The position numbers and the translations under genes are program-made. The notes beneath the pieces are model-generated. The model saw only the letters and a list, made by a program, of their open reading frames with translations. It had not been told where the DNA came from and did no database searches. DNA of 64,000 nucleotides from Candidatus Latescibacterota bacterium (GTDB lineage: Bacteria > Latescibacterota > UBA2968), in the NCBI GenBank assembly GCA_965208125.1, contig OZ242320.1, forward strand, positions 2,528,001-2,592,000, read 5' to 3'. Shown one piece after another: positions 48,613-58,204 of the stretch (position 1 is its first letter; each line of letters opens with the position of its first letter).

Positions 48613-49466
48613 AGTCGATGCGGTCCTGGCTTTTTGTACCGGGGTACTGGCAGCGTATGATCGACAAGGCTCTGGGCCTGCCGGCGGATGTGCTGATATT
48701 CGATCTGGAGGACGGCGTCCCGGAGGCTGAGAAGGATGTTGCGCGCAGTCGTGTCGCTGCCGCGCTGGACGGCGCGCGTGGCGGCCCAACGCAATTCGTT
48801 AGGGTTCACGATGCCGGTTCCTCCGAATTGGATGCCGATCTGCAGGCGATCGCGCGTGCGGGGTTGCAGGGACTCGTATTGCCCAAAGTGCAGGGACCGG
48901 AGGATGTGCTTCAGGTGTGCCAGTGGCTGGACCAGCACGAGACCAGAGCGGGTATTCCATCTGGAGGCGTCAGGCTTCTGGCGACCATTGAGAGTGCCCG
49001 GGGTCTGGTTCAGGCGCCTGCGATCGCATCCGTTACACCCAGGCTGGTGGGGCTCATGTTCGGCGCGGAGGATTTCGCGCTGGATCTGGGCCTTTTTTCG
49101 CACCCGGGACAGGGATTGGTCAATTACGCTCGGTCGGCGCTGGCGGTGGCTTCAGCAAGCGGACAAATCCGGGCTATAGACAAGGTGTTTACGGACATCA
49201 GCGATCCTGACGGGCTGGCCGCGGAGGCGCGGCGGGCCAGGGATCTGGGGTTTGTCGGAAAAGCCGTAATTCATCCGGGTCAGGTTGGGGTGGTGAATGA
49301 AATTTTCGGTCCCACGGAGGTCGAGGAGAGGTGGGCACGGCGAATTGTTGAGGCTTTTGAAGGGCGGGCGGACGAAGGCCCGGCGACCGTGGATGGCCGG
49401 ATGGTAGATAGGCCGATTCTGGAACGGGCGCGATGGATTCTGGATCGCCTTGAGGAAGAGGGTTAA
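48609..49466 (+). CDS. CitE/HpcH-family acyl-CoA lyase
   Basis: RSWLFVPG, DLEDGV, IESARG, FGAEDF, GKAVIHPGQ, DGRMVD. Confidence 0.9.
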   Translation: MKSMRSWLFVPGYWQRMIDKALGLPADVLIFDLEDGVPEAEKDVARSRVAAALDGARGGPTQFVRVHDAGSSELDADLQAIARAGLQGLVLPKVQGPEDVLQVCQWLDQHETRAGIPSGGVRLLATIESARGLVQAPAIASVTPRLVGLMFGAEDFALDLGLFSHPGQGLVNYARSALAVASASGQIRAIDKVFTDISDPDGLAAEARRARDLGFVGKAVIHPGQVGVVNEIFGPTEVEERWARRIVEAFEGRADEGPATVDGRMVDRPILERARWILDRLEEEG

Positions 49467-49467
49467 C

Positions 49468-50673
49468 TTGCACGATCAAAACCAACATCCACCCCTGAAT
49501 GGAATAAGGATTGTCTCGGTGGAGCAGTTCGGGGCGGGGCCGTGGGCAACGATGATGTTGGCGGACCTTGGGGCGGAGATCATCAAAGTCGAGAATCCCG
49601 AGACGGGTGGCGATGTCGCGCGTTACGTGCCACCCTATACCGCTGAACAGGATAGCGTGTATTTTCAGAGTTTCAACCGGAACAAGAAGAGTATGACGCT
49701 GAATTTGCAGCATCCAGGAGGACGGGAGGTGTTGCATCGGCTGGTGGGGATTTCGGATGGGGTGTTCAACAACCTGCGCGGAGATCTTCCGGCCCGGCTG
49801 GGTCTGGACTATCCGGCGCTGAGTGCGGTTAAGGCTTCAATTGTGTGTTGCTCGCTTTCCGCGTTCGGGCGGCGTGGGTCTCGAGCGGGCGAACCGGGAT
49901 ACGATTATCTGATGCAGGGATATGCCGGATGGATGAGTCTTACGGGCGAGCCAGATGGCCCACCGACGAAAACAGGACTTTCCCTCGTGGATCTCGGTGC
50001 AGGCACCATGGCGTCTCTGGGCATGGTCAGCGCGATTTTCCGCGCCAGACAGACGGGTTTGGGGTGCGATGTAGATGTGAATCTGTTCGATACGGCACTG
50101 GCGAATCTGGGATATGTGGCGGCGTGGTTCCTGACCAGAGGGTATCAGGCGCATCGGACGCCCGATTCTTCTCATCCGTCACAGATCCCGTCGCAGGTGG
50201 TGCCGACCAGGGACGGATGGCTCGTGATCATGTGCGCAAAGGAGAAGTTTTTTCAAAATCTGGTACGCGTTCTGGGGGTGCCGGAACTGTCGGAAGATCC
50301 CCGGTTCTGCTCTTTTGCGGATCGCCTGGAGAACCGGGATGTTCTGGTTCCGATTCTGAAGGATCTCTTCCGCAAGAAGACAACCGACGATTGGCTGGCG
50401 CTGCTCAAGGGCAAGGTGCCTTGCGCGCCCGTGAATACGGTTGAACAGGCTTTTGCCGACCCGCAGGTGGCCGAGGATAATATGATACTGGAGTTGCCGC
50501 ATCCGGATTTCGGAGTCGTCCGGGTGGTGGCGAGTCCCATAGAGGTCGGTGGCGGATCGATTGAACCCCGGCGCGGGCCTTCACTGGGAGAACACAACGA
50601 GTCGGTCTTGGGCGAATATCTGGGATATTCAATGCCAGAGATTGAGAAACTCCGAAGCGACGGTGCCATTTGA
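49468..50673 (+). CDS. Family III (CaiB/BaiF) CoA-transferase
   Basis: AGPWATMMLADLGAEIIKVE, NRNKKS, PGYD, P-x-LGEHN. Confidence 0.92.
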   Translation: MHDQNQHPPLNGIRIVSVEQFGAGPWATMMLADLGAEIIKVENPETGGDVARYVPPYTAEQDSVYFQSFNRNKKSMTLNLQHPGGREVLHRLVGISDGVFNNLRGDLPARLGLDYPALSAVKASIVCCSLSAFGRRGSRAGEPGYDYLMQGYAGWMSLTGEPDGPPTKTGLSLVDLGAGTMASLGMVSAIFRARQTGLGCDVDVNLFDTALANLGYVAAWFLTRGYQAHRTPDSSHPSQIPSQVVPTRDGWLVIMCAKEKFFQNLVRVLGVPELSEDPRFCSFADRLENRDVLVPILKDLFRKKTTDDWLALLKGKVPCAPVNTVEQAFADPQVAEDNMILELPHPDFGVVRVVASPIEVGGGSIEPRRGPSLGEHNESVLGEYLGYSMPEIEKLRSDGAI

Positions 50674-50677
50674 ATTT

Positions 50678-52045
50678 TCATGCATTGGGCAACTCCGTTC
50701 GCAACACAAGTTTTTCCTCGGGTGTTCCCGCGCCTTTTAATACTTCCAGATACGCTTGGTGCAGTCGCTGTGCTTCGGCCATGTTTTGCTGGTTATACAC
50801 GTTGTGCTTTTGCGCGAGGTCTGTTTGCAGGTCGTATAATTCCGCAGGCCAGTTGGGGCCGCGATAGTGCAAGGTCCAGTTGCCGTCTGTGATGCTGGAG
50901 CATACGCTTCTGTCTTCGCGCACTGGCAGGGTTGCCGATGTGACGGCGACTTTTCGTTGTTCTTCTGCTTTTTCGCCTTTCAGTATGGGGGCGACTGATA
51001 TCCCGTGTAGTCCATCGGGTTTTTTTATGCCTGCCAGATCGAGTATTGTGGGCATGAAATCGACGGGTTGTGTTAAGACTTTTGTGCGTTTTCCCGCTGC
51101 GTTGCTGCCGGGCACATATCCCATGAAGGCCGTGTGGGATACTTCTTCGTAATAGGGCCAGTCGCCGTCTGGTCCCTGTCCGCTTTTGCCAATGCGTCCG
51201 TGGTCGCCGATGTAATGTCCGTGATCAGACATGAAGATCACGGCTGTGTCTTCCCAGAGATTCAGGTTTTCTACTTTTTCCAACAGGTGACCGACCCAGG
51301 TGTCCATGAGTGTGACTTCACCTGCGTATAGCGCCCGCGTGTGTTTGATTTCTTCTGCGCTCAGGTAATCGCAATAGTCGTAAATGGGATGGTCGATGAC
51401 TTCACCTGCGTATCCGGGGTTGTACATATTGACGTAGTGCGCGGGGGGATCCCACGGTTCGTGAGGGTCAAAGGTGTCGATGTAGAGGAAGAATTTTTCG
51501 TGGGTGTGGTTTGCTTCCAGCCAGTCTGCGGCGCGTTGCATGGTGCGTGCGACAAAGGTGTCGCGTTCTGTTTCCCAGTGTGCTGCACGCCAGCGATAGT
51601 GATATTGTTGCATGCGCTCAGGTGTGCGAATTTTTTCGGGGACTGATTCGAAGGGGACGGGTATATCGTCTGTGATTGAGCGGTCGCCTTCTTGCCCGCG
51701 AATCCATTCCCAGCCCAAAAACCCGCGGTCAAATTGATGTCCGTCTCTTACGAGATGTGGTGTGTCACATAAGAGCATGGTTACATATCCCGCGTCTGTG
51801 AGGAGTTCGGCTAAGATGATTTCATCTTCGGGGAGCGGTGTCCAGCCGCGGAAGGGAAAAGTGAGTCTGCCGGTCATCATGTCTGTGCGCGTGGGTATTG
51901 TTGGAAACGACGCTTGATATGCGCGGTCAAAGACCATGCAGCGTTTGGAGAATGCGTCTATATGCGGCGTGCGGATCCAGTTATTGCCATGACACCCCAG
52001 GTGATCGTAGCGCAGGGTGTCGGACATTACGACGATGATATTCAT
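50678..52045 (-). CDS. Sulfatase-like hydrolase with Thr at the nucleophile position
   Basis: SDTLRYDHLG, TIPTR in place of CxPxR, DPHEPW, SDHG, ELYDL. Confidence 0.85.
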   Translation of the reverse strand: MNIIVVMSDTLRYDHLGCHGNNWIRTPHIDAFSKRCMVFDRAYQASFPTIPTRTDMMTGRLTFPFRGWTPLPEDEIILAELLTDAGYVTMLLCDTPHLVRDGHQFDRGFLGWEWIRGQEGDRSITDDIPVPFESVPEKIRTPERMQQYHYRWRAAHWETERDTFVARTMQRAADWLEANHTHEKFFLYIDTFDPHEPWDPPAHYVNMYNPGYAGEVIDHPIYDYCDYLSAEEIKHTRALYAGEVTLMDTWVGHLLEKVENLNLWEDTAVIFMSDHGHYIGDHGRIGKSGQGPDGDWPYYEEVSHTAFMGYVPGSNAAGKRTKVLTQPVDFMPTILDLAGIKKPDGLHGISVAPILKGEKAEEQRKVAVTSATLPVREDRSVCSSITDGNWTLHYRGPNWPAELYDLQTDLAQKHNVYNQQNMAEAQRLHQAYLEVLKGAGTPEEKLVLRTELPNA

Positions 52046-52219
52046 GTTAGTCCTCCAAAAAGGTTTCTGAATGCTGAAAATTGAGCTTGTGTAAAATAAT
52101 TCCTTTTTTTAATTCTGCAATACGAACGTCAGATGGTTCAAAATGGGGTTGTGGTTTGTATATTTTTTTCTCTATGTTTTTCAGAGTGAATATTTATAGT
52201 CACACGCATTAGGGAGGAG

Positions 52220-53107
52220 ATGATGGATTCTATTTATGGGATTGTGCCGCCAGTGGTGACGCCGTTTCGGGAGGATGACGCACTTGATGAGGGGGCGTTT
52301 CGAGCGGAAATTCAGTATATGATTGAGACGGCAGAGGTGCACGGGTTGGCGGTGACGGGGAGTACGGGCGAGGGGCATACGCTCGGGGATGATGAGGTGA
52401 GGCAGTTGACGCAATGGGCAGTGGAGGAAGCCGATGGGCGAGTGCCAGTGATTACGGGGATTATTACGGACAGTACGAAGTCGGCAATTGAGCGGGGGAA
52501 GGCTGTGGCCGATTTGGGTCCGGTGGCGTTGCAGGTGACACCAGTGCATTATTTGTTTCGGCCAGACGATGATGCGATGGTCAGGCATTTTGAGGCGTTG
52601 TGTGAGGGGACGGAGTTGCCGGTGATGATTTACAATGTGGTGCCGTGGACGTATTTGTCGCCGGAGTTGTTGACGCGGATTATTGACGAGGTGGATGGTG
52701 TGGTGGGGGTGAAGCAGAGTGCGGGAGATATGAAGTTGCTGGCTGATTTGTTGTTGATGGCCGGAGATCGAGCACGGATTATGACTGCGGTGGATGCGTT
52801 GTTGTATCCGTCATTTGTTTTGGGTGCGCACGGTGCGATTGCTGCGATTTTGACGGCTGTGCCCGAGTTGTGTGTGGCGGTGTGGGATGCGTGTCAGACG
52901 GGTGATCATAAAAAGGCGTTGGATTTACACGAGAAGTTGCTGCCGATTTGGAATGCGATTTTTGATGATAATTTGCCCGCAAATACCAAGTATGCGATGA
53001 AGCTGCAGGGACGTGATGGGGGTGTGCCGCGCCCGCCAATGCCACCGTCGTCTGCCGAGCAAGAGGGGCGGGTTCAGGCGGCATTGGAGAATGCAAGTGT
53101 GGTTTAA
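52220..53107 (+). CDS. Dihydrodipicolinate synthase family (class I aldolase) protein
   Basis: VTPF, GSTGEG, IYNV, GVKQS. Confidence 0.88.
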   Translation: MMDSIYGIVPPVVTPFREDDALDEGAFRAEIQYMIETAEVHGLAVTGSTGEGHTLGDDEVRQLTQWAVEEADGRVPVITGIITDSTKSAIERGKAVADLGPVALQVTPVHYLFRPDDDAMVRHFEALCEGTELPVMIYNVVPWTYLSPELLTRIIDEVDGVVGVKQSAGDMKLLADLLLMAGDRARIMTAVDALLYPSFVLGAHGAIAAILTAVPELCVAVWDACQTGDHKKALDLHEKLLPIWNAIFDDNLPANTKYAMKLQGRDGGVPRPPMPPSSAEQEGRVQAALENASVV

Positions 53108-54468
53108 TCCTGCGCCTTCAGCCTGATTGGCATTAGCAATGCCAGCCATTCCGCATTCAGGGGTGTGCGCAAGATGATCGCTTTTCCCTGTTCTCTAAAT
53201 TCTATTGTGATTTCATCGCTGTCTTCAAAGTCGAGAGCATGCAGGATCTTTTTGAGATATGCGAAGTTCACGGCGAACCTGAGTGTGTCTTCTGATGGTG
53301 TTTCAAATTTGGCATTGAGGGGTACTTGAAATATCCAATCTGCAACGCCTCCTGGCGAGTCGTCATCTTTCGCGTCGTGGAGATATTGGAATTTGCCATT
53401 GTCCTCTCGGGTATATCCCGTGTCCCGTGAGGTGAGAAAGGTTATGGTTTGGGTCAGTGGCGAGAGATGCAGATCTATACGAGGGCGGTATTGCCATGTG
53501 TCCGACTCTGGGTGCCGCGCTTCCATGAAGTCTTGTAGTAAGTTCAGTGCGTGTGCGAGAAGAGTCGAGGAGATGGAAACGCGCATTGTGGGATCTTCTT
53601 GCGGGATGACCTGTTCGTATTTGACATAAGGTCCTTCGATCAAGGGGACCTGAAGGGTTGTGCCATTGCCCTGGATTTCTGCGGTTGTTTCCGCAATTTT
53701 CAATGTGGCATGTTCGGGGAGTTGAATGCCTGACCAGGGTCCGATGACAATGGGTGCGGCTAATTCCGAGAGGCTTTTCAATGTGCGAATGATCATGATA
53801 TGCCCATTGGTCGCAATCGCGCGACCGCCTGTGTCGAGACATACGCCCTGCAAGATCGGGCGTTTTTCATCGTCGCTTACAAAACCGATTACTTTTTTGA
53901 GCGCGTCCATGTCCGCGCGGTTCAGTTCAGTTGTTTGCATTTGAATATCCGACATTTTGTGCAGCTCTCCTTTCAATTTGAGACGCGCACGCCTCAGGCG
54001 CCCGCGCACGGTTTCTACCGTGAGGTTCAGGAGGTCGGCTGTTTCCGCATAAGAATATCCTTTGAAATAGTGATGGGCGATTACCTGGCGATGTTCAGCC
54101 GATAGGATGCGTAGCGCGGCTCGTACAATGTGTTTGATTTCTTCTTCATCGTGCGGTGCGGGTTCTGGATAAAATGTTTCTTCCAGCCGCAATTGCACGG
54201 CTCGACGGCGATGATGGGAGTTGACGGCGTTGCGTATGATGCTGTGTAACCAGGGTCTAAATCGGTCGGGTTTGCGAAGTTGATGCAGATTTTCGTACAC
54301 TTTGATAAATACGATTTGGACCAGGTCTTCTACGTCATCGACCAATCGTATGGATCGGGCAATTTGGGCATACACATATCGCGAATAGCGTTGCACCAGA
54401 ACTGCGAATGCTTTGCGGTCGCCGTCTAAAATCCTGGCGATGAGCGCGCTGTCTTCAATCTGTTCCAT
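53104..54468 (-). CDS. ECF sigma factor fused to beta sliding clamp (DnaN) domains II-III
   Basis: sigma2 VEDLVQIVF...FRPWLHSIIRN; sigma4 SYAETADLL...TVRGRLRRAR; then RPILQGV, ATNGH, LIEGPYVKYEQVIP, VNFAYL..IL.AL, LLMPIRL. Confidence 0.8.
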   Translation of the reverse strand: MEQIEDSALIARILDGDRKAFAVLVQRYSRYVYAQIARSIRLVDDVEDLVQIVFIKVYENLHQLRKPDRFRPWLHSIIRNAVNSHHRRRAVQLRLEETFYPEPAPHDEEEIKHIVRAALRILSAEHRQVIAHHYFKGYSYAETADLLNLTVETVRGRLRRARLKLKGELHKMSDIQMQTTELNRADMDALKKVIGFVSDDEKRPILQGVCLDTGGRAIATNGHIMIIRTLKSLSELAAPIVIGPWSGIQLPEHATLKIAETTAEIQGNGTTLQVPLIEGPYVKYEQVIPQEDPTMRVSISSTLLAHALNLLQDFMEARHPESDTWQYRPRIDLHLSPLTQTITFLTSRDTGYTREDNGKFQYLHDAKDDDSPGGVADWIFQVPLNAKFETPSEDTLRFAVNFAYLKKILHALDFEDSDEITIEFREQGKAIILRTPLNAEWLALLMPIRLKAQD

Positions 54469-54509
54469 ATTTCTCGCTGCGAAAAATTAATCCACGCGTG
54501 TTTTAATAA

Positions 54510-54538
54510 GAGACGAGCCTGTATCCCGAAAGTGTCGC
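54510..54538 (-). promoter_or_regulatory. Possible ECF autoregulatory promoter
   Basis: Minus strand GCGACAC-N16-CGTCTC about 40 bp upstream of the sigma-clamp ATG. Confidence 0.35.
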
Positions 54539-54546
54539 ATGGATAT

Positions 54547-54583
54547 AAAAAAAGCCCCGGATTGTTCCGAGGCTTGATTTTTT
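54547..54583. terminator. Intrinsic terminator after PhyH gene
   Basis: A7-gccccgg-loop-ccgaggctt...T6. Confidence 0.55.
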
Positions 54584-54588
54584 CGATG

Positions 54589-55407
54589 TTAAGCATTGGG
54601 ACACTTGAAGTCCAGGCCATCCATGATGACTTTTATCTGATCGGATGGTTTGAAATAATCTGTTGCGGTATAGTTTTTGCCCAGGTCGCCCATTAACCGA
54701 CGGCGGCGGGGTGTCATGCGGGATAGAACTTCTTCGGGACATTTTTCGTAATCGTAAGGTCTGCACCACATTTGTCCATACCGGAAGGTGATGCTGCGCC
54801 GCACGACGTCTGTGTGATTTGGCGCAACTGCGTGCCACATGGTATTCGGAAAGATCGCGCAATCTCCCGCTTCGGCAATGAGTTGTATTGCGCCGGGCGG
54901 TGTTTCATTGCGCGCCTCTTTGGGCATTGGGCGGCGATGGCTGCCGGGTACCAGACAGAAGTTTGCACAATTTTCGTGTGGTATATCGGTGAGGAAAAAC
55001 TGAATTTTGAAGTTTAATGGCAGACTGTCTGGCGTGACCCGAATTTGTGCCAGTGAGCGTCCAGCATCGGTGTGCCAGCCGATCAGATTGTCGGATTTGT
55101 CATTTGGATAGCGCACGTAAATTTGCGATCCCATGATCTGGATATAAGGTCCCATCAGGTCGAGGATGACGCCAAATAAGTTGGGATGGTCCATTAACCC
55201 GTCAATACGATTCGTTCGGAAGAGCGTTTGGATGATGGTATAGACGCCTTTTTCGAGAACCTCGGGATATTTGGCTTCATACTCTGCGATTACTTCATTG
55301 GCCGCGTCGAGATAACCCGCTGCTTCGTCTTTGGGGATTACATTTTTGAGATGTAAATATCCCTGTTCCTGCCACTGTTGCCGCATGGATTTGCTCAATT
55401 GGTTCAT
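54589..55407 (-). CDS. PhyH-family Fe(II)/2OG dioxygenase
   Basis: GWHTD, VPGSH, AGD...WHAVAPN. Confidence 0.88.
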   Translation of the reverse strand: MNQLSKSMRQQWQEQGYLHLKNVIPKDEAAGYLDAANEVIAEYEAKYPEVLEKGVYTIIQTLFRTNRIDGLMDHPNLFGVILDLMGPYIQIMGSQIYVRYPNDKSDNLIGWHTDAGRSLAQIRVTPDSLPLNFKIQFFLTDIPHENCANFCLVPGSHRRPMPKEARNETPPGAIQLIAEAGDCAIFPNTMWHAVAPNHTDVVRRSITFRYGQMWCRPYDYEKCPEEVLSRMTPRRRRLMGDLGKNYTATDYFKPSDQIKVIMDGLDFKCPNA

Positions 55408-55519
55408 GTCAAAGCTCCTGTGTTTTGAATGTTGTTTTAGACCTTAGCCCTTGCCTGATTGTGTACAATGAGATATTTTTCGATGAAACTATCGGAAAAC
55501 AATATAAAAGGAGGCTTTT

Positions 55520-55840
55520 ATGCTCGTGTTGACAACCCCCAATATTGAGGGAAAAACTATTGATAGCTATCAGGGTATTGTGACTGGCGAAGCTATTTTG
55601 GGTGCCAATTTTTTCAAAGATATTTTTGCGAGTCTCCGCGATATTGTCGGCGGGCGTTCAGCCGCGTATGAGTCAGAACTCCGCAGAGCCAAAGATCTCG
55701 CCATTGAGGAAATGGTCGAACAGGCACGCGGTATGGGTGCCAATGCCGTCATTGGCGTGGATCTCGACTACGATACGGTTGGCGAGGGCAGTATGCTTAT
55801 GGTCAGTGCCAGTGGCACGGCTGTTACTTATCGGGCTTGA
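55520..55840 (+). CDS. YbjQ/UPF0145 family protein
   Basis: [12 protein letters not shown]...[12 protein letters not shown]...[12 protein letters not shown]...SGTAV. Confidence 0.92.
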
Positions 55841-55848
55841 GACGTTCG

Positions 55849-56715
55849 TTATTTGTAGTGTGTTTGGGTAAATTTCGATTCTTTTATTACGGTTTGCGAT
55901 TCGTAAATGGATCCGCTTCGGAGTGCGCCCGGCCAGGGCATTCGCACGGGTACGGCTTCCACGCGCGGGATGTTGGTCGGTTCGCCGCGCACGATTGTTT
56001 CATTGAACAAATCCCAGTTGTTCAGGCCAGATAGGGGATACGCATCGATCGCGCAGTATTGAAATAGGAGCAGTCGGCGGGGTTTGTCAGATGTATTGGA
56101 TACTGATCCGTGCAGCATGCGTACGTGATGAATTGTGATGCCGCCTGCTTTTACCATTACGGGGACGGCTCCTTTGTCGCTAAAGGTCGGATCAGTTACG
56201 GCGCCGCAGAAATGGCCATCGAGGTGATGATCGTACACTGGCCCTTTGTGCGAGCCGGGGATGACGAGCAAGGGGCCGTTTTCTTCTGTCATGTCGTCGA
56301 GCACTATGCCCACAGCGAGCAAATCGTCGTTGCTATGCGGATAAAATGCCCAGTCCTGATGCCACTCGACCGGGCTGCCGTAGCCGGGTTGTTTCATGTT
56401 GAGCTTGTTGCCATTGCAGCGCAGGCCGTATCCGATCAATTGCGATACGATGCCCAAAATTTTCTCGTGATGCAGGGTTTTGCGATATACTTCATGTAGC
56501 AGGATCGGACTTTTTAAGCGTCTCAATTTTGGGTTTTCGGGTGTGTGCCCGGGTTCGAGGTCGAATACTTCGGTGTGTTCGGTGACTTCCCGCGATTTTT
56601 CCACATATTCATCGGTTATCCGACGCAGGTTATTGACCTCGTCTTCACTGAGCACGTTCTCCACACCGAGATATCCGTGTTCGTGATAAAACGCAATTTG
56701 TTTCTGGGTGAGCAT
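55849..56715 (-). CDS. PhyH-family Fe(II)/2OG dioxygenase
   Basis: WHQDWAFYPH, ENGPL..IPGSH, HGSVSN. Confidence 0.9.
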   Translation of the reverse strand: MLTQKQIAFYHEHGYLGVENVLSEDEVNNLRRITDEYVEKSREVTEHTEVFDLEPGHTPENPKLRRLKSPILLHEVYRKTLHHEKILGIVSQLIGYGLRCNGNKLNMKQPGYGSPVEWHQDWAFYPHSNDDLLAVGIVLDDMTEENGPLLVIPGSHKGPVYDHHLDGHFCGAVTDPTFSDKGAVPVMVKAGGITIHHVRMLHGSVSNTSDKPRRLLLFQYCAIDAYPLSGLNNWDLFNETIVRGEPTNIPRVEAVPVRMPWPGALRSGSIYESQTVIKESKFTQTHYK

Positions 56716-56731
56716 GGTTTACTCCTTCTTT

Positions 56732-58204
56732 TTATGGATGTCGGTATTTGTTTTCAAATTTTTCGCGCAGTAAGACCGCGCCTTCTGCACGGTCGGTTTC
56801 TGCAAGGCGGTCGCAATAGTCTTCGAAAGCACCCCAGGTGTGCATTGGCCCACCTTCTTGCATGACTGTCCAGAGGGGATCGTTGTCGTAGGGTCGCGGC
56901 ATGGTTTCCATCATGTGGTCGTGCCAGTTCATGAGGCGATACGCAGCCTCGCGGCATATATTGGGATTTTCAGCCGCTACGTCGCGCATTTCCCAGGGGT
57001 CGTCTGATAGGTTAAATAATAGTTCGCGTGGGTAAAGTCGATATCCGTCGTGATAGGTGCGGATATAAATCCAGTCGTCAAAGCGGACAGCCCGCTGGCA
57101 CACATGGGCGCACTGGCTCAAGATTAATTCGTTGCGTCCAGCATCTGCACCTTCGGTAATGACAGTGGCATAACTTTCGCCATCCCACAACGCCTGTTTT
57201 TGCCCACCTAAAAGATCGGCTAATGTGGGCGCCAAATCAATATTGTAATGCAGGCCCTCGTCTGTGATTCCAGACTGCCCGCCGGGCCACTTTACAATCA
57301 TGGGAATATGGCAGGTTGCCTGATCGGCTGTTCCGTGTTCCCCGTATATGCCGAGTTCGCCCATGTTTTCGCCGTGATCTGCGCTGATGATGATCGCGGT
57401 GTCGTTCAGTACGCCTTTGTTTTCCAATATGCCCACAATGATGGCGATTTGATCATCTACGTACCGGATCGCGGTGTCGTATCCATCGATCATCCGCCGC
57501 AGGTCGTCCATGTTGTCCAGGCGCCCGGGGTGCCGGGGAAAGCGCGGATTGGGGCGGTCGTTCCACATCATGATGTCCTGCGCGGTGTGGGGACCGACGA
57601 GTTTTTTGTGTTCTTCCAGTAATTCGGGGGTCAGCCAGTCCGGTAGGGGGTCATCGGCAAAGGGTTCGCCGTATTCCGCTGGCGCGCGATAGGGTGTGTG
57701 TACATCCCAGTAGTTGATGTGCAAAAACCAGTTGTCGTCCGCGGCATTGTCATTCAGCCATTTTTCGACTACGGGTGTTACTTCTTCGGCTGATTCCATG
57801 CCGCCTTTGCCGGTGTTGTGTATTTCGTTGAAGCCCGCGTAAAAATGCCACGCGGCATGCCGCTGTCCAAAGGGGCTGATCATGGATGTTTTAAATCCCT
57901 GGCGTTGCAAGAAGCCAGCCAGGCCTTCGTTGGCGAGTCGATCTCGAAAACCGCGGTTTGGCCCATTTATCCGCCGTTCTGCCGCTGTGCCGCCATGCCC
58001 TACGACGCCCGAATGAATGCCAAATTGCCCGGAGTAAAGTGCGGTGCGCGATGGCAAGCAGGGCGCGTCTGTTGTATAGACCTGGTTAAATCGAATGCCT
58101 TCGGCTGCGATTTTGTCAATTGTTGGGGATGTGTTGCGGTGATATCCGTAACAGCCCAGGTGTGTGGGATTTAAGGCGTCGAGATCGAGGTACAGGATAC
58201 GCAT
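56732..58204 (-). CDS. Sulfatase (Cys-type formylglycine)
   Basis: CLPSR motif, DVHTPY, ADHGE; no signal peptide. Confidence 0.9.
   Translation of the reverse strand: MRILYLDLDALNPTHLGCYGYHRNTSPTIDKIAAEGIRFNQVYTTDAPCLPSRTALYSGQFGIHSGVVGHGGTAAERRINGPNRGFRDRLANEGLAGFLQRQGFKTSMISPFGQRHAAWHFYAGFNEIHNTGKGGMESAEEVTPVVEKWLNDNAADDNWFLHINYWDVHTPYRAPAEYGEPFADDPLPDWLTPELLEEHKKLVGPHTAQDIMMWNDRPNPRFPRHPGRLDNMDDLRRMIDGYDTAIRYVDDQIAIIVGILENKGVLNDTAIIISADHGENMGELGIYGEHGTADQATCHIPMIVKWPGGQSGITDEGLHYNIDLAPTLADLLGGQKQALWDGESYATVITEGADAGRNELILSQCAHVCQRAVRFDDWIYIRTYHDGYRLYPRELLFNLSDDPWEMRDVAAENPNICREAAYRLMNWHDHMMETMPRPYDNDPLWTVMQEGGPMHTWGAFEDYCDRLAETDRAEGAVLLREKFENKYRHP

What the first reader, a model, noticed from the sequence alone, without database searches (positions are those of the whole stretch)
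53104..54468. ECF sigma factor fused to a two-domain beta sliding clamp: candidate new sensor system
Seen: residues ~1-170 are an ECF sigma (sigma2 + sigma4); residues ~172-454 follow DnaN domains II-III in order: SDDEKRPILQGV (cf. DVRYYLNGM), ATNGH (ATDGH), LIEGPYVKYEQVIP (LVDGRFPDYRRVLP), VNFAYLKKILHAL (FNVSYVLDVLNAL), LLMPIRL (VVMPMRL). Domain I is absent. Known: the pocket between domains II and III, built from the TDGH, Y..V and MPMR segments, binds clamp-binding motifs and inhibitors such as griselimycin; the normal dimeric ring needs domain I; two-domain clamps (PCNA, gp45) form trimers; phage T4 couples a clamp to a sigma for late transcription. Inference: either a one-component sigma that senses clamp-binding peptides/replication stress through a retained pocket, or a sigma carrying its own trimeric ring. 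No anti-sigma is adjacent, a candidate autoregulatory promoter lies upstream, and an internal SD-ATG could release the free clamp-like domain as a decoy. I know of no characterised example, but could not check novelty.
Basis: partly seen in the sequence, partly recalled or inferred. Interest (0 to 1): 0.88.

Follow-up and report, generated by a model that had tools for sequence, protein, structure and literature searches.

The report
Sigma factor fused to clamp-derived domain
This gene encodes an alternative sigma factor permanently joined to a two-domain copy of the cell's own DNA sliding clamp, a conserved but uncharacterised design that may tie gene switching to the replication machinery.

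Summary
The ORF lies on the minus strand (54468 to 53104, 454 aa). Residues 1-170 are an ECF sigma factor (Pfam r2 3e-13, r4_2 2e-12). Residues 177-450 are a diverged copy of DnaN domains II-III: family profiles hit solved beta clamps at 2e-17, and all listed Foldseek hits are beta clamps, best 2e-15.

The fusion is not an assembly artefact. It gave a match in 66 of 168 genomes of the phylum, named Latescibacterota by relatives' record titles, almost always in frames of 422-510 aa. Both halves are under purifying selection. A canonical dnaN exists elsewhere in the genome.

The module descends from the lineage's own DnaN and keeps the peptide-binding cleft motifs. It lacks domain I and one inner helix, and carries a conserved insert beside the former dimer-interface position.

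No anti-sigma gene is adjacent. An ECF-type promoter precedes 30 of 33 loci. An SD-ATG at the hinge is present in 31 of 31 loci.

My best reading is a cleft-bearing clamp mimic acting as the sigma's regulatory or tethering domain. This mechanism is inferred, not shown. A ring-forming, T4-like sigma is not excluded. I found no description in print.

The parts
53104..54468 (-). Whole ORF, 454 aa plus stop: ECF sigma fused to a clamp-derived module
   Evidence: 47 relatives found, about 35 of them full length. A match in 66 of 168 genomes of the phylum.
53956..54468 (-). Residues 1-171: ECF sigma. Sigma2 is 24-90, sigma4 is 114-166. The linker carries the family motif RRRxVQLRLEE (87-97).
   Evidence: Q92 is kept in 28 of the 30 non-redundant sequences with a residue in that column. 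Linker residues 100-106 have pLDDT below 50.
53107..53955 (-). Residues 172-454: hinge plus the clamp-derived module. Domain II is about 178-290 and domain III about 295-450.
53953..53973 (-). Candidate internal ribosome-binding site (AAAGGAG, 53973-53967) and the ATG of M172 (53955-53953)
   Evidence: ATG plus GGAG is present in 31 of 31 loci. Background is 19 of 258 other in-frame ATGs.
54512..54537 (-). ECF-type promoter: -35-like CGACACTTTC (54537-54528), 12-nt spacer, -10-like CGTC (54515-54512)
   Evidence: The same architecture (GGATACTTTC-N12-CRTC) lies upstream in 30 of 33 loci, down to 35% protein identity.
54494..54499 (-). ACGCGT palindrome 12 nt downstream of the -10, in the leader. 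Function unknown.
   Evidence: ACGCGT or a CGCG-rich variant recurs at the same place in most diverged loci printed.
54552..54575 (-). Terminator-like hairpin plus T-run ending the upstream PhyH-like gene. It insulates the sigma gene.
   Evidence: Similar hairpin and T-run sequences are visible in the printed upstream regions of other loci.
53482..53530 (-). Residues about 313-329: family-specific insert (F/H-L-E-x-R-H-P ... W-x-Y-x-P) next to the position of the beta dimer-interface residues
   Evidence: H319 is kept in 35 of 38, Y327 in 35 of 38 and P329 in 33 of 38 non-redundant sequences.

Best explanation
What it is (shown): an autoregulated, monocistronic gene for an ECF-type sigma factor. 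Its sigma4 domain is joined by a hinge of about 10 residues to a 280-residue module that arose by duplication of domains II-III of the lineage's own beta sliding clamp.

How it most likely works (inferred): the module is not a replication clamp. It is a cleft-bearing clamp mimic that replaces the missing anti-sigma factor, in the way other fused C-terminal extensions of ECF sigmas (groups ECF41 and ECF42) control their sigma. Its retained hydrophobic cleft would bind a clamp-binding-motif-like peptide. That peptide could come from a replication or repair protein in trans, or from the sigma's own conserved linker in cis. Binding would either switch the sigma between a closed and an RNAP-competent state, or tether the holoenzyme to clamp partners. 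Sigma activity would then follow the state of the replication and repair machinery.

A conserved SD-ATG at the hinge probably also yields the free module, which could titrate the same ligands.
For: Identity and fold.

Conservation: a match in 66 of 168 genomes of the phylum, in frames of 422-510 aa in nearly all. 32 of 34 loci in genome contigs carry the fusion. dN/dS is 0.10-0.16 for the sigma part and 0.12-0.24 for the module.

Origin from own DnaN: 27% identity overall (79 of 290 columns, E 7e-13). The interdomain connector LIEGPYVKYEQVIPQ is 14 of 15 identical to own DnaN, whereas E. coli has LVDGRFPDYRRVLP.

Cleft retention in 38 sequences below 70% identity: R203 33, T220 31, G222 36, Y284 34, V287 31, N401 31, M446 34, P447 37, R449 28. 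Residues 362-366 of E. coli beta are part of the cleft that binds clamp-binding motifs (PMC3022782, passages read).

Loss of ring features: no domain I. Domain II has one helix in both models, and the alignment shows a 5-residue deletion there. An insert lies a few residues past the I272/L273-equivalent position.

No anti-sigma neighbour and no neighbour conserved across all lineages. This pattern is reported for ECFs with C-terminal extensions (PMC7826278, passages).

A family-specific linker motif is present. The ECF41 extension acts by contacting a linker motif (PMC8999054, passages).

Own promoter conserved in 30 of 33 loci.

Internal SD-ATG in 31 of 31 loci. Synonymous-codon chance is about 0.004 over five lineages.
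Against: No binding, activity or regulon was measured. Every mechanistic step is inference.

The cleft motifs are also the most conserved structural motifs of DnaN in general, so their retention may partly reflect fold constraints.

The AlphaFold models give no confident sigma-module packing: pTM is 0.57 and 0.68, and the linker has pLDDT below 50.

The linker motif QLRLEE shares only Q-L-x-L with clamp-binding motifs and lacks their terminal hydrophobic residue.

The promoter motif is not enriched elsewhere in the genome: 3 strict hits against 2 in the control, and the 2 other hits lie inside ORFs. No regulon points to replication or repair.

No Y-family polymerase (PF00817) was found in this genome, which removes one obvious ligand class.

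A Met at the end of sigma4 also occurs in two neighbouring paralogous ECFs. The invariant M172 therefore need not be a start codon.
Confidence: 0.45

Rival explanations
1. A sigma with its own sliding ring. The two-domain modules would assemble head-to-tail, for example as a PCNA-like trimer, around DNA upstream of the promoter. The holoenzyme would then track along DNA or be loaded at nicks by the clamp loader. This would be a covalent, cellular version of T4 gp45 with gp55 and gp33.
For: The module has two clamp domains, the domain count of PCNA and gp45 protomers. This point is recalled, not from a call.

It hangs from the C-terminus of sigma4. In T4 late complexes the clamp sits at the upstream face of RNAP through gp33 and gp55 (PMC12867686, discussion read; the geometry is recalled).

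The retained cleft is also the clamp-loader docking site in beta (recalled).

Clamp-dependent transcription by host RNAP is established for T4 and Mu.
Against: The second inner helix of domain II is missing in both models and is shortened in the alignment.

A conserved insert lies a few residues past the position of the beta dimer-interface residues I272/L273.

The predicted inner helices carry few conserved basic residues, as read from the alignments.
Confidence: 0.15
2. The clamp fold has been re-used for something other than the cleft. The family-specific surface (R318-H319-P320, Y327, G351-Y352, W378) would be the functional site, for example a small-molecule or protein sensor, or a dimerisation surface. 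The DnaN-like motifs would persist only as the structural core.
For: H319 (35 of 38), Y327 (35 of 38), G351 (36 of 38), Y352 (34 of 38) and W378 (37 of 38) are as conserved as any cleft residue. They lie in two inserts with no DnaN counterpart.

The module also occurs with other partners: a zinc ribbon in P0102 and a SEC-C motif in P0117.
Against: The cleft-lining residues are kept at the same level. The connector stays nearly identical to the host DnaN, although overall identity is 27%. Together these suggest that the cleft still matters.
Confidence: 0.2
3. The main active product is the free 283-aa module made from the internal start. It would act as a monomeric clamp decoy that sequesters clamp partners, for example to brake replication. 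The sigma half would mainly provide positive-feedback expression.
For: An invariant ATG with GGAG 9-11 nt upstream is present in 31 of 31 loci.

A gene call starting exactly at this Met exists in the protein collection on a 46.5-kb contig (P0083).

A monomeric E. coli clamp with a functional cleft could not be cloned and was suggested to be dominant-negative (PMC3022782, passage).
Against: No stop or frameshift separates the halves in any of the 31 loci used for the hinge count.

Most 'stand-alone' hits sit on contigs of 1-1.4 kb and share clusters with forms of 449-466 aa.

Met and K-E residues at the end of sigma4 also occur in paralogous ECFs.
Confidence: 0.12
4. An artefact: a chimeric assembly or a missed stop codon joins two separate genes.
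For: None found.
Against: The same continuous frame occurs in 32 loci from separate assemblies. It also occurs in 66 of 168 genomes. Identity tiers follow taxonomy. Both halves are under purifying selection.
Confidence: 0.01

Closest known systems
ECF sigma factors with fused C-terminal regulatory extensions (ECF41 SnoaL-like, ECF42 TPR, ECF238 Cys-rich)
   Same: The sigma2-sigma4 core is followed by a long C-terminal domain. No anti-sigma gene lies next door. A group-specific motif sits in the sigma2-sigma4 linker. The gene has its own ECF-type promoter.
   Different: The extension is a two-domain derivative of the replication clamp. I did not find that extension type in the main text of the ECF re-classification (0 occurrences of clamp, DnaN or polymerase III) or of the review. 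Their supplements were closed.
Bacterial beta sliding clamp (DnaN)
   Same: The fold and order of domains II and III match. The connector and cleft motifs are kept. The module is clearly a paralogue of the same lineage's DnaN.
   Different: There is no domain I. One inner helix is lost. Two inserts sit in domain III, one beside the former dimer-interface position. The module evolves faster: 32-41% identity between lineages whose DnaN stays 48-71% identical. It is fused to a sigma. The real dnaN is elsewhere in the genome.
Phage T4 late transcription (gp45 clamp, gp55 sigma-like, gp33) and phage Mu MuC with the host clamp
   Same: A clamp-fold protein is coupled to promoter-specific transcription by bacterial RNAP (PMC12867686, abstract and discussion read).
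   Different: In the phages, a separate ring is loaded by a clamp loader and contacted through short clamp-binding tails. Here the clamp-derived domain is covalently part of a cellular ECF sigma, and ring formation is unproven.
Two-domain clamp-fold proteins (PCNA, T4 gp45, herpesvirus processivity factors, short phage PolIII-beta-like factors)
   Same: Two clamp domains per chain. The viral fold search also lists short phage factors of 211-244 aa and PCNA-like or herpesvirus factors, at weaker scores.
   Different: By both sequence and fold, the module is closest to three-domain bacterial DnaN, not to those families.

Membership tests
ECF (group 4) sigma-70 family | Sigma2 and sigma4 domains present, above curated thresholds | tested here: met
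   PF04542 scores 49.7 bits (cut-off 24). PF08281 scores 47.2 bits (cut-off 25.7). TIGR02937 scores 94.4 bits (cut-off 42.9)..
ECF (group 4) sigma-70 family | No sigma1.1 or sigma3; short sigma2-sigma4 linker | tested here: met
   Only r2 and r4 models match within residues 1-170. The linker is about 20 residues.
ECF (group 4) sigma-70 family | Bipartite ECF-type promoter (-35 with an AC core, -10 CGT-like) upstream of its own gene | tested here: met
   GGATAC/CGACAC-N16-C(G/A)TC is found in 30 of 33 loci. That the sigma uses this promoter was not tested.
ECF sigmas regulated by a C-terminal extension | Extension longer than 50 aa, and no anti-sigma gene in the neighbourhood | tested here: met
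   The extension is 283 aa. The flanking genes are PhyH-like and DHDPS-family. No neighbour is conserved across all lineages.
ECF sigmas regulated by a C-terminal extension | The extension modulates sigma activity | not testable with these tools
   This needs in vitro transcription or reporter assays with truncations.
DnaN / beta sliding clamp | Three clamp domains (Pfam beta, beta_2, beta_3) above threshold | tested here: not met
   Domain I is absent. beta_2 scores 13.7 bits and beta_3 12.9 bits against a cut-off of 27. Homology appears only with profiles.
DnaN / beta sliding clamp | Clamp fold of domains II and III | tested here: met
   Foldseek E 2.3e-15 to 7ybd; all listed hits are beta clamps. 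Module pLDDT is mostly 90 or more in the second model.
DnaN / beta sliding clamp | Hydrophobic cleft residues between domains II and III | tested here: met
   Met at the sequence level only. Equivalents of R152, L155, T172, G174, Y244, V247, N320, Y323, M362, P363 and R365 are conserved. Peptide binding was not tested.
DnaN / beta sliding clamp | Head-to-tail dimer interface (domain I with domain III, I272/L273) forming a closed ring | tested here: not met
   There is no domain I. The I272/L273-equivalent position is D313/F314, followed within a few residues by a family-specific insert. Whether another kind of ring forms is unknown.
PCNA / gp45-type two-domain trimeric clamp | Homotrimeric ring of two-domain protomers | not testable with these tools
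   No usable oligomer evidence was obtained; see Tried and rejected.
T4-type clamp-activated late transcription | A separate clamp loaded by a clamp loader contacts sigma or co-activator tails through clamp-binding motifs | tested here: not met
   Here the clamp-derived domain is covalently fused, and no dedicated loader gene is adjacent. Functional analogy remains possible.

The most novel reading that the evidence does not exclude
This would be a cellular counterpart of phage clamp-dependent transcription. The sigma factor carries a domesticated copy of the host's own clamp cleft. Through it, the sigma reads or joins the clamp-partner network. It could do so by being recruited to or released from replication and repair proteins that carry clamp-binding motifs, by being handled by the clamp loader, or by assembling on DNA. 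Transcription from its promoters would then be directly coupled to replication or repair status. A second product, the free module from the internal start, would tune the response.
Probability: 0.3. Interest if true: 0.9.

Novelty: new variant of a known kind. Interest (0 to 1): 0.74.

Why it matters
ECF sigmas with fused regulatory domains are known. A regulatory domain derived from the replication clamp is not among those I could find in print. Clamp-coupled transcription is so far a phage speciality (T4 and, recently, Mu).

A conserved cellular sigma-clamp fusion would be a directly testable link between the clamp interaction network and promoter selection. It would also add a new input type for ECF signalling, and it is a natural example of a domain-I-less clamp that keeps its cleft.

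The protein is short, soluble-looking and has a defined candidate promoter. Binding, oligomeric state and in vitro transcription can therefore be tested by heterologous expression, even though the host phylum is uncultured.

Tried and rejected
Homotrimer prediction (complex prediction, 3 copies of residues 172-454 with alignment A2): the verdict was 'no answer', score 0.00 against a mark of 0.42.

Regulon search:
- Strict and relaxed promoter patterns in the own genome gave 3 hits against 2 in the control, and 15 against 18.
- The two extra strict hits lie inside coding sequence.
- In five genomes of another genus, a 17-base pattern with up to 2 mismatches gave 10 hits against 0 in the control.
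- Four of those 10 are the gene's own promoter.
- Only one other hit (L043, upstream of an FtsX/MacB-like permease gene) is intergenic and correctly oriented, and it was seen in one genome only.
- No regulon could be defined.

Stand-alone modules. I first read the 270-290 aa hits as free forms. One search showed that most lie on contigs of about 1-1.4 kb and share 90% clusters with fused forms of 449-466 aa, so I withdrew that reading. P0083 (46.5-kb contig) starts at the internal Met, but its context could not be fetched: the metagenome scan found nothing.

Cis clamp-binding motif in the linker (VQLRLEE). The resemblance is weak: it shares Q-L-x-L and has no terminal hydrophobic residue. The models do not dock the linker. 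I keep it only as an option.

Defence role: there were no PADLOC hits for the protein, and the neighbours are metabolic genes.

Phage origin: phage clamps match no better than bacterial ones, and the connector motif matches the host DnaN.

Expression. RNA-library contigs from four runs (88-95% alike, so relatives) cover the gene, and one 800-base contig spans the hinge. Contigs in RNA libraries do not prove transcription and show no ends. The shares of unlaid DNA runs (0.22-0.29, sponge, marine and coral labels) are not used as habitat evidence.

ESM Atlas: best scores were 0.82-0.84, below the level that counts, so they are leads only.

An ECF group with this extension could be listed there.
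Full report
**1. The observation**

The ORF at 53104-54468 is on the minus strand. Its ATG is at 54468-54466 and it encodes 454 aa.

Residues 1-170 are an ECF sigma factor. Pfam Sigma70_r2 covers 24-90 (E 3.3e-13) and Sigma70_r4_2 covers 114-165 (1.7e-12). NCBIfam TIGR02937 scores 94.4 bits against a cut-off of 42.9.

For the single sequence, the clamp signal is only sub-threshold. DNA_pol3_beta_2 matches 196-279 (E 0.08) and beta_3 matches 394-449 (E 0.1), both about 13 bits against a cut-off of 27. With relatives it becomes unambiguous:
- A profile of 22 full-length homologues hits solved beta clamps at 5.6e-14.
- A profile of the C-terminal part alone (20 sequences) returns 55 PDB sequences at E<=0.001. 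All are beta clamps, and the best is 2.4e-17.
- That profile aligns module positions 8-142 to E. coli beta 125-268, and 218-275 to beta 312-366.
- PHROG 947 (processivity factor) scores 3.5e-19.

Two AlphaFold models were made (pLDDT 78.1, pTM 0.57; and pLDDT 88.2, pTM 0.68). For the first, all listed Foldseek PDB hits are bacterial beta clamps, best E 2.3e-15 over about 287 columns. Domain I is absent.

**2. Not an artefact, and where it occurs**

The word-based search found 47 relatives. About 35 are full length (440-504 aa), down to 38% identity. All 22 aligned members carry both halves.

In genome contigs, 32 of 34 confirmed loci encode the fusion. Nearly all record titles read Candidatus Latescibacterota. 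A few read Gemmatimonadota, 'uncultured Gemmatimonas' or 'uncultured bacterium', but at least L019, L020 and L026 share synteny with Latescibacterota loci.

Within the phylum's genome set, the module gives a match at E<=1e-10 in 66 of 168 genomes:
- By family: f1 15/30, f2 18/22, f3 2/3, f4 30/76.
- There were no matches in the 36 genomes of ten other families.
- Among high-quality genomes: 16 of 52.
- There was one match per genome, in open frames of 422-510 aa in nearly all.
- One match has an internal TAG, and one genome keeps only a 149-aa remnant.
- Five of 20 other genomes of the own genus gave no match.

The exhaustive search with the C-terminal part found 216 representatives at E<=0.001. 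All 10 of the 10 longer ones (403-494 aa) that I scanned have sigma r2 and r4 domains, at module identities down to 21-30%.

dN/dS against six relatives is 0.10-0.16 for the sigma half and 0.12-0.24 for the module.

The own genome has a canonical dnaN (424-aa frame; PF02768 at 76.8 bits) next to a recF-like gene, my reading of its sequence. It has only one copy of the fusion.

**3. Anatomy of the module**

The module is a paralogue of the lineage's own DnaN. Identity is 27% over 290 columns (E 7e-13). The interdomain connector LIEGPYVKYEQVIPQ is 14 of 15 identical to the host DnaN (LIEGPYVDYEQVIPQ). E. coli has LVDGRFPDYRRVLP there.

DnaN stays 48-71% identical between lineages in which the module is only 32-41% identical.

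Cleft-lining positions are well kept. I list them by recall of the E. coli literature; residues 362-366 are confirmed as cleft residues in PMC3022782 (passages read). In 38 sequences below 70% identity the counts are:
- R203 33, L206 26, T220 31, G222 36.
- Y284 34, V287 31, N401 31, Y404 28.
- M446 34, P447 37, R449 28.

Three features depart from a working clamp:
- There is no domain I.
- The second inner helix of domain II is replaced by a short Gly/Pro-containing loop. This is seen in both models, and the alignment to DnaN shows a 5-residue deletion there.
- Domain III has two inserts carrying residues as conserved as the cleft: H319 35/38, Y327 35/38, G351 36/38, Y352 34/38, W378 37/38.

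The first insert starts a few residues after the position equivalent to beta I272/L273. [quoted passage not shown] The equivalence comes from my reading of the alignments.

**4. Gene organisation**

The upstream PhyH-like gene ends in a hairpin with a T-run (54575-54552).

An ECF-type promoter follows: CGACACTTTC-N12-CGTC at 54537-54512. The same architecture (GGATACTTTC-N12-C[G/A]TC in diverged lineages) lies upstream of the gene in 30 of 33 loci. An ACGCGT palindrome follows the -10 element.

The downstream gene is a convergent DHDPS-family gene that overlaps by 4 bases.

Neighbours differ between lineages, and none is an anti-sigma factor.

At the hinge, the ATG of M172 with GGAG 9-11 nt upstream is present in 31 of 31 loci. 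Background is 19 of 258 other in-frame ATGs and 890 of 13,895 codon positions. Given the amino acids and local codon usage, GGAG in five lineages has a chance of roughly 0.004 (my multiplication).

One caveat applies. Paralogous ECFs nearby also end sigma4 with E-x-x-M.

**5. Mechanism**

Shown: what the protein is, that it is conserved, that it has its own conserved promoter, and that it lacks a partner gene.

Inferred: the module acts like the C-terminal extensions of other ECF groups. Those extensions correlate with the absence of anti-sigma factors (PMC7826278, passages). In ECF41 the extension works by contacting a linker motif (PMC8999054, passages).

This family has its own linker motif, RRRxVQLRLEE. 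Q92 is kept in 28 of the 30 non-redundant sequences with a residue in that column.

The cleft is retained and the connector stays host-like. I therefore think the module binds clamp-binding-motif-like peptides and so couples sigma activity or location to clamp partners.

The rivals are:
- a ring-forming, T4-like arrangement (for the T4 and Mu precedents);
- a new function on the insert surface;
- a free decoy as the main product.

No regulon could be defined. The models do not dock sigma and module confidently.

**6. Novelty**

I ran three full-text searches: 'ECF sigma' / 'sliding clamp' / 'C-terminal extension'; ECF / sigma factor / DnaN / fused / beta clamp; and Latescibacteria / sigma factor. 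None found a description.

The main texts of the ECF re-classification and of a review of non-canonical ECFs hold no occurrence of clamp, DnaN or polymerase III.

One database entry already carries precomputed PF02768 beside the sigma domains (P0030). The architecture is therefore visible in domain databases, but it is uncharacterised as far as I could see.

I file it as a new variant of a known kind: an ECF sigma with a fused regulatory domain.

**7. Verdict**

Interest is high for sigma-factor and replication specialists, and the mechanism is open and testable.

Noticed in passing
window 54494-54499 (minus strand), and the equivalent place in L015-L023: An ACGCGT or CGCG-rich palindrome lies about 12 nt downstream of the -10 element, conserved across diverged loci. 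It may be an operator or a leader element.
   Followed up: no
L030:4114-5817 (-) and L030:7746-9650 (+); also L015:4270-5088 and L016:4826-5581: Other ECF sigma genes flank the fusion gene in some lineages. The two in L030 (567 and 634 aa) have long helical C-terminal extensions that look TPR-like to my eye; no family scan was run. This phylum seems rich in extended ECFs.
   Followed up: partly
P0102 (324 aa) and P0117 (348 aa), metagenome proteins: The same clamp-derived module occurs behind an N-terminal zinc ribbon (P0102) and in front of a C-terminal SEC-C motif (P0117). Both come from contigs of about 2 kb, so their context is unknown.
   Followed up: partly
DnaN and module of G000, G042, G061, G052, G167: The residue at the E. 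coli H175 cleft position is the same in DnaN and module of one genome in four of five cases (H/H, A/A, A/A, A/A, S/A). Three of those cases are one family, so this is only a hint of co-variation.
   Followed up: no
relatives P0008, P0012, P0014 against the window protein, domain III loop near residue 393: A 12-residue insertion or deletion polymorphism (466 against 454 aa) among close relatives lies in a loop just before the VNFAYL segment.
   Followed up: no
own genome G000: No match to the Y-family polymerase domain PF00817 at E<=0.001 (genome completeness 96%), while the control genomes ring.
   Followed up: no
L043 (G052:C1:2412581-2415606): A second site with a perfect -35 element, a 12-nt spacer and CATC lies about 50 nt upstream of an FtsX/MacB-like permease gene, named from its N-terminal sequence by eye. 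It was seen in one of five genomes searched.
   Followed up: partly
window 49450-58204: The neighbourhood holds two sulfatases, two PhyH-family dioxygenases, a family III CoA-transferase, a DHDPS-family enzyme and a YbjQ-like protein. It is a catabolic setting with no replication or repair genes.
   Followed up: yes
G086:C1:4852481-4852663: One genome of the own genus keeps only an 85%-identical remnant of the module's last 60 residues, in a 149-aa frame. Five others gave no match. The gene therefore seems dispensable in some strains.
   Followed up: no
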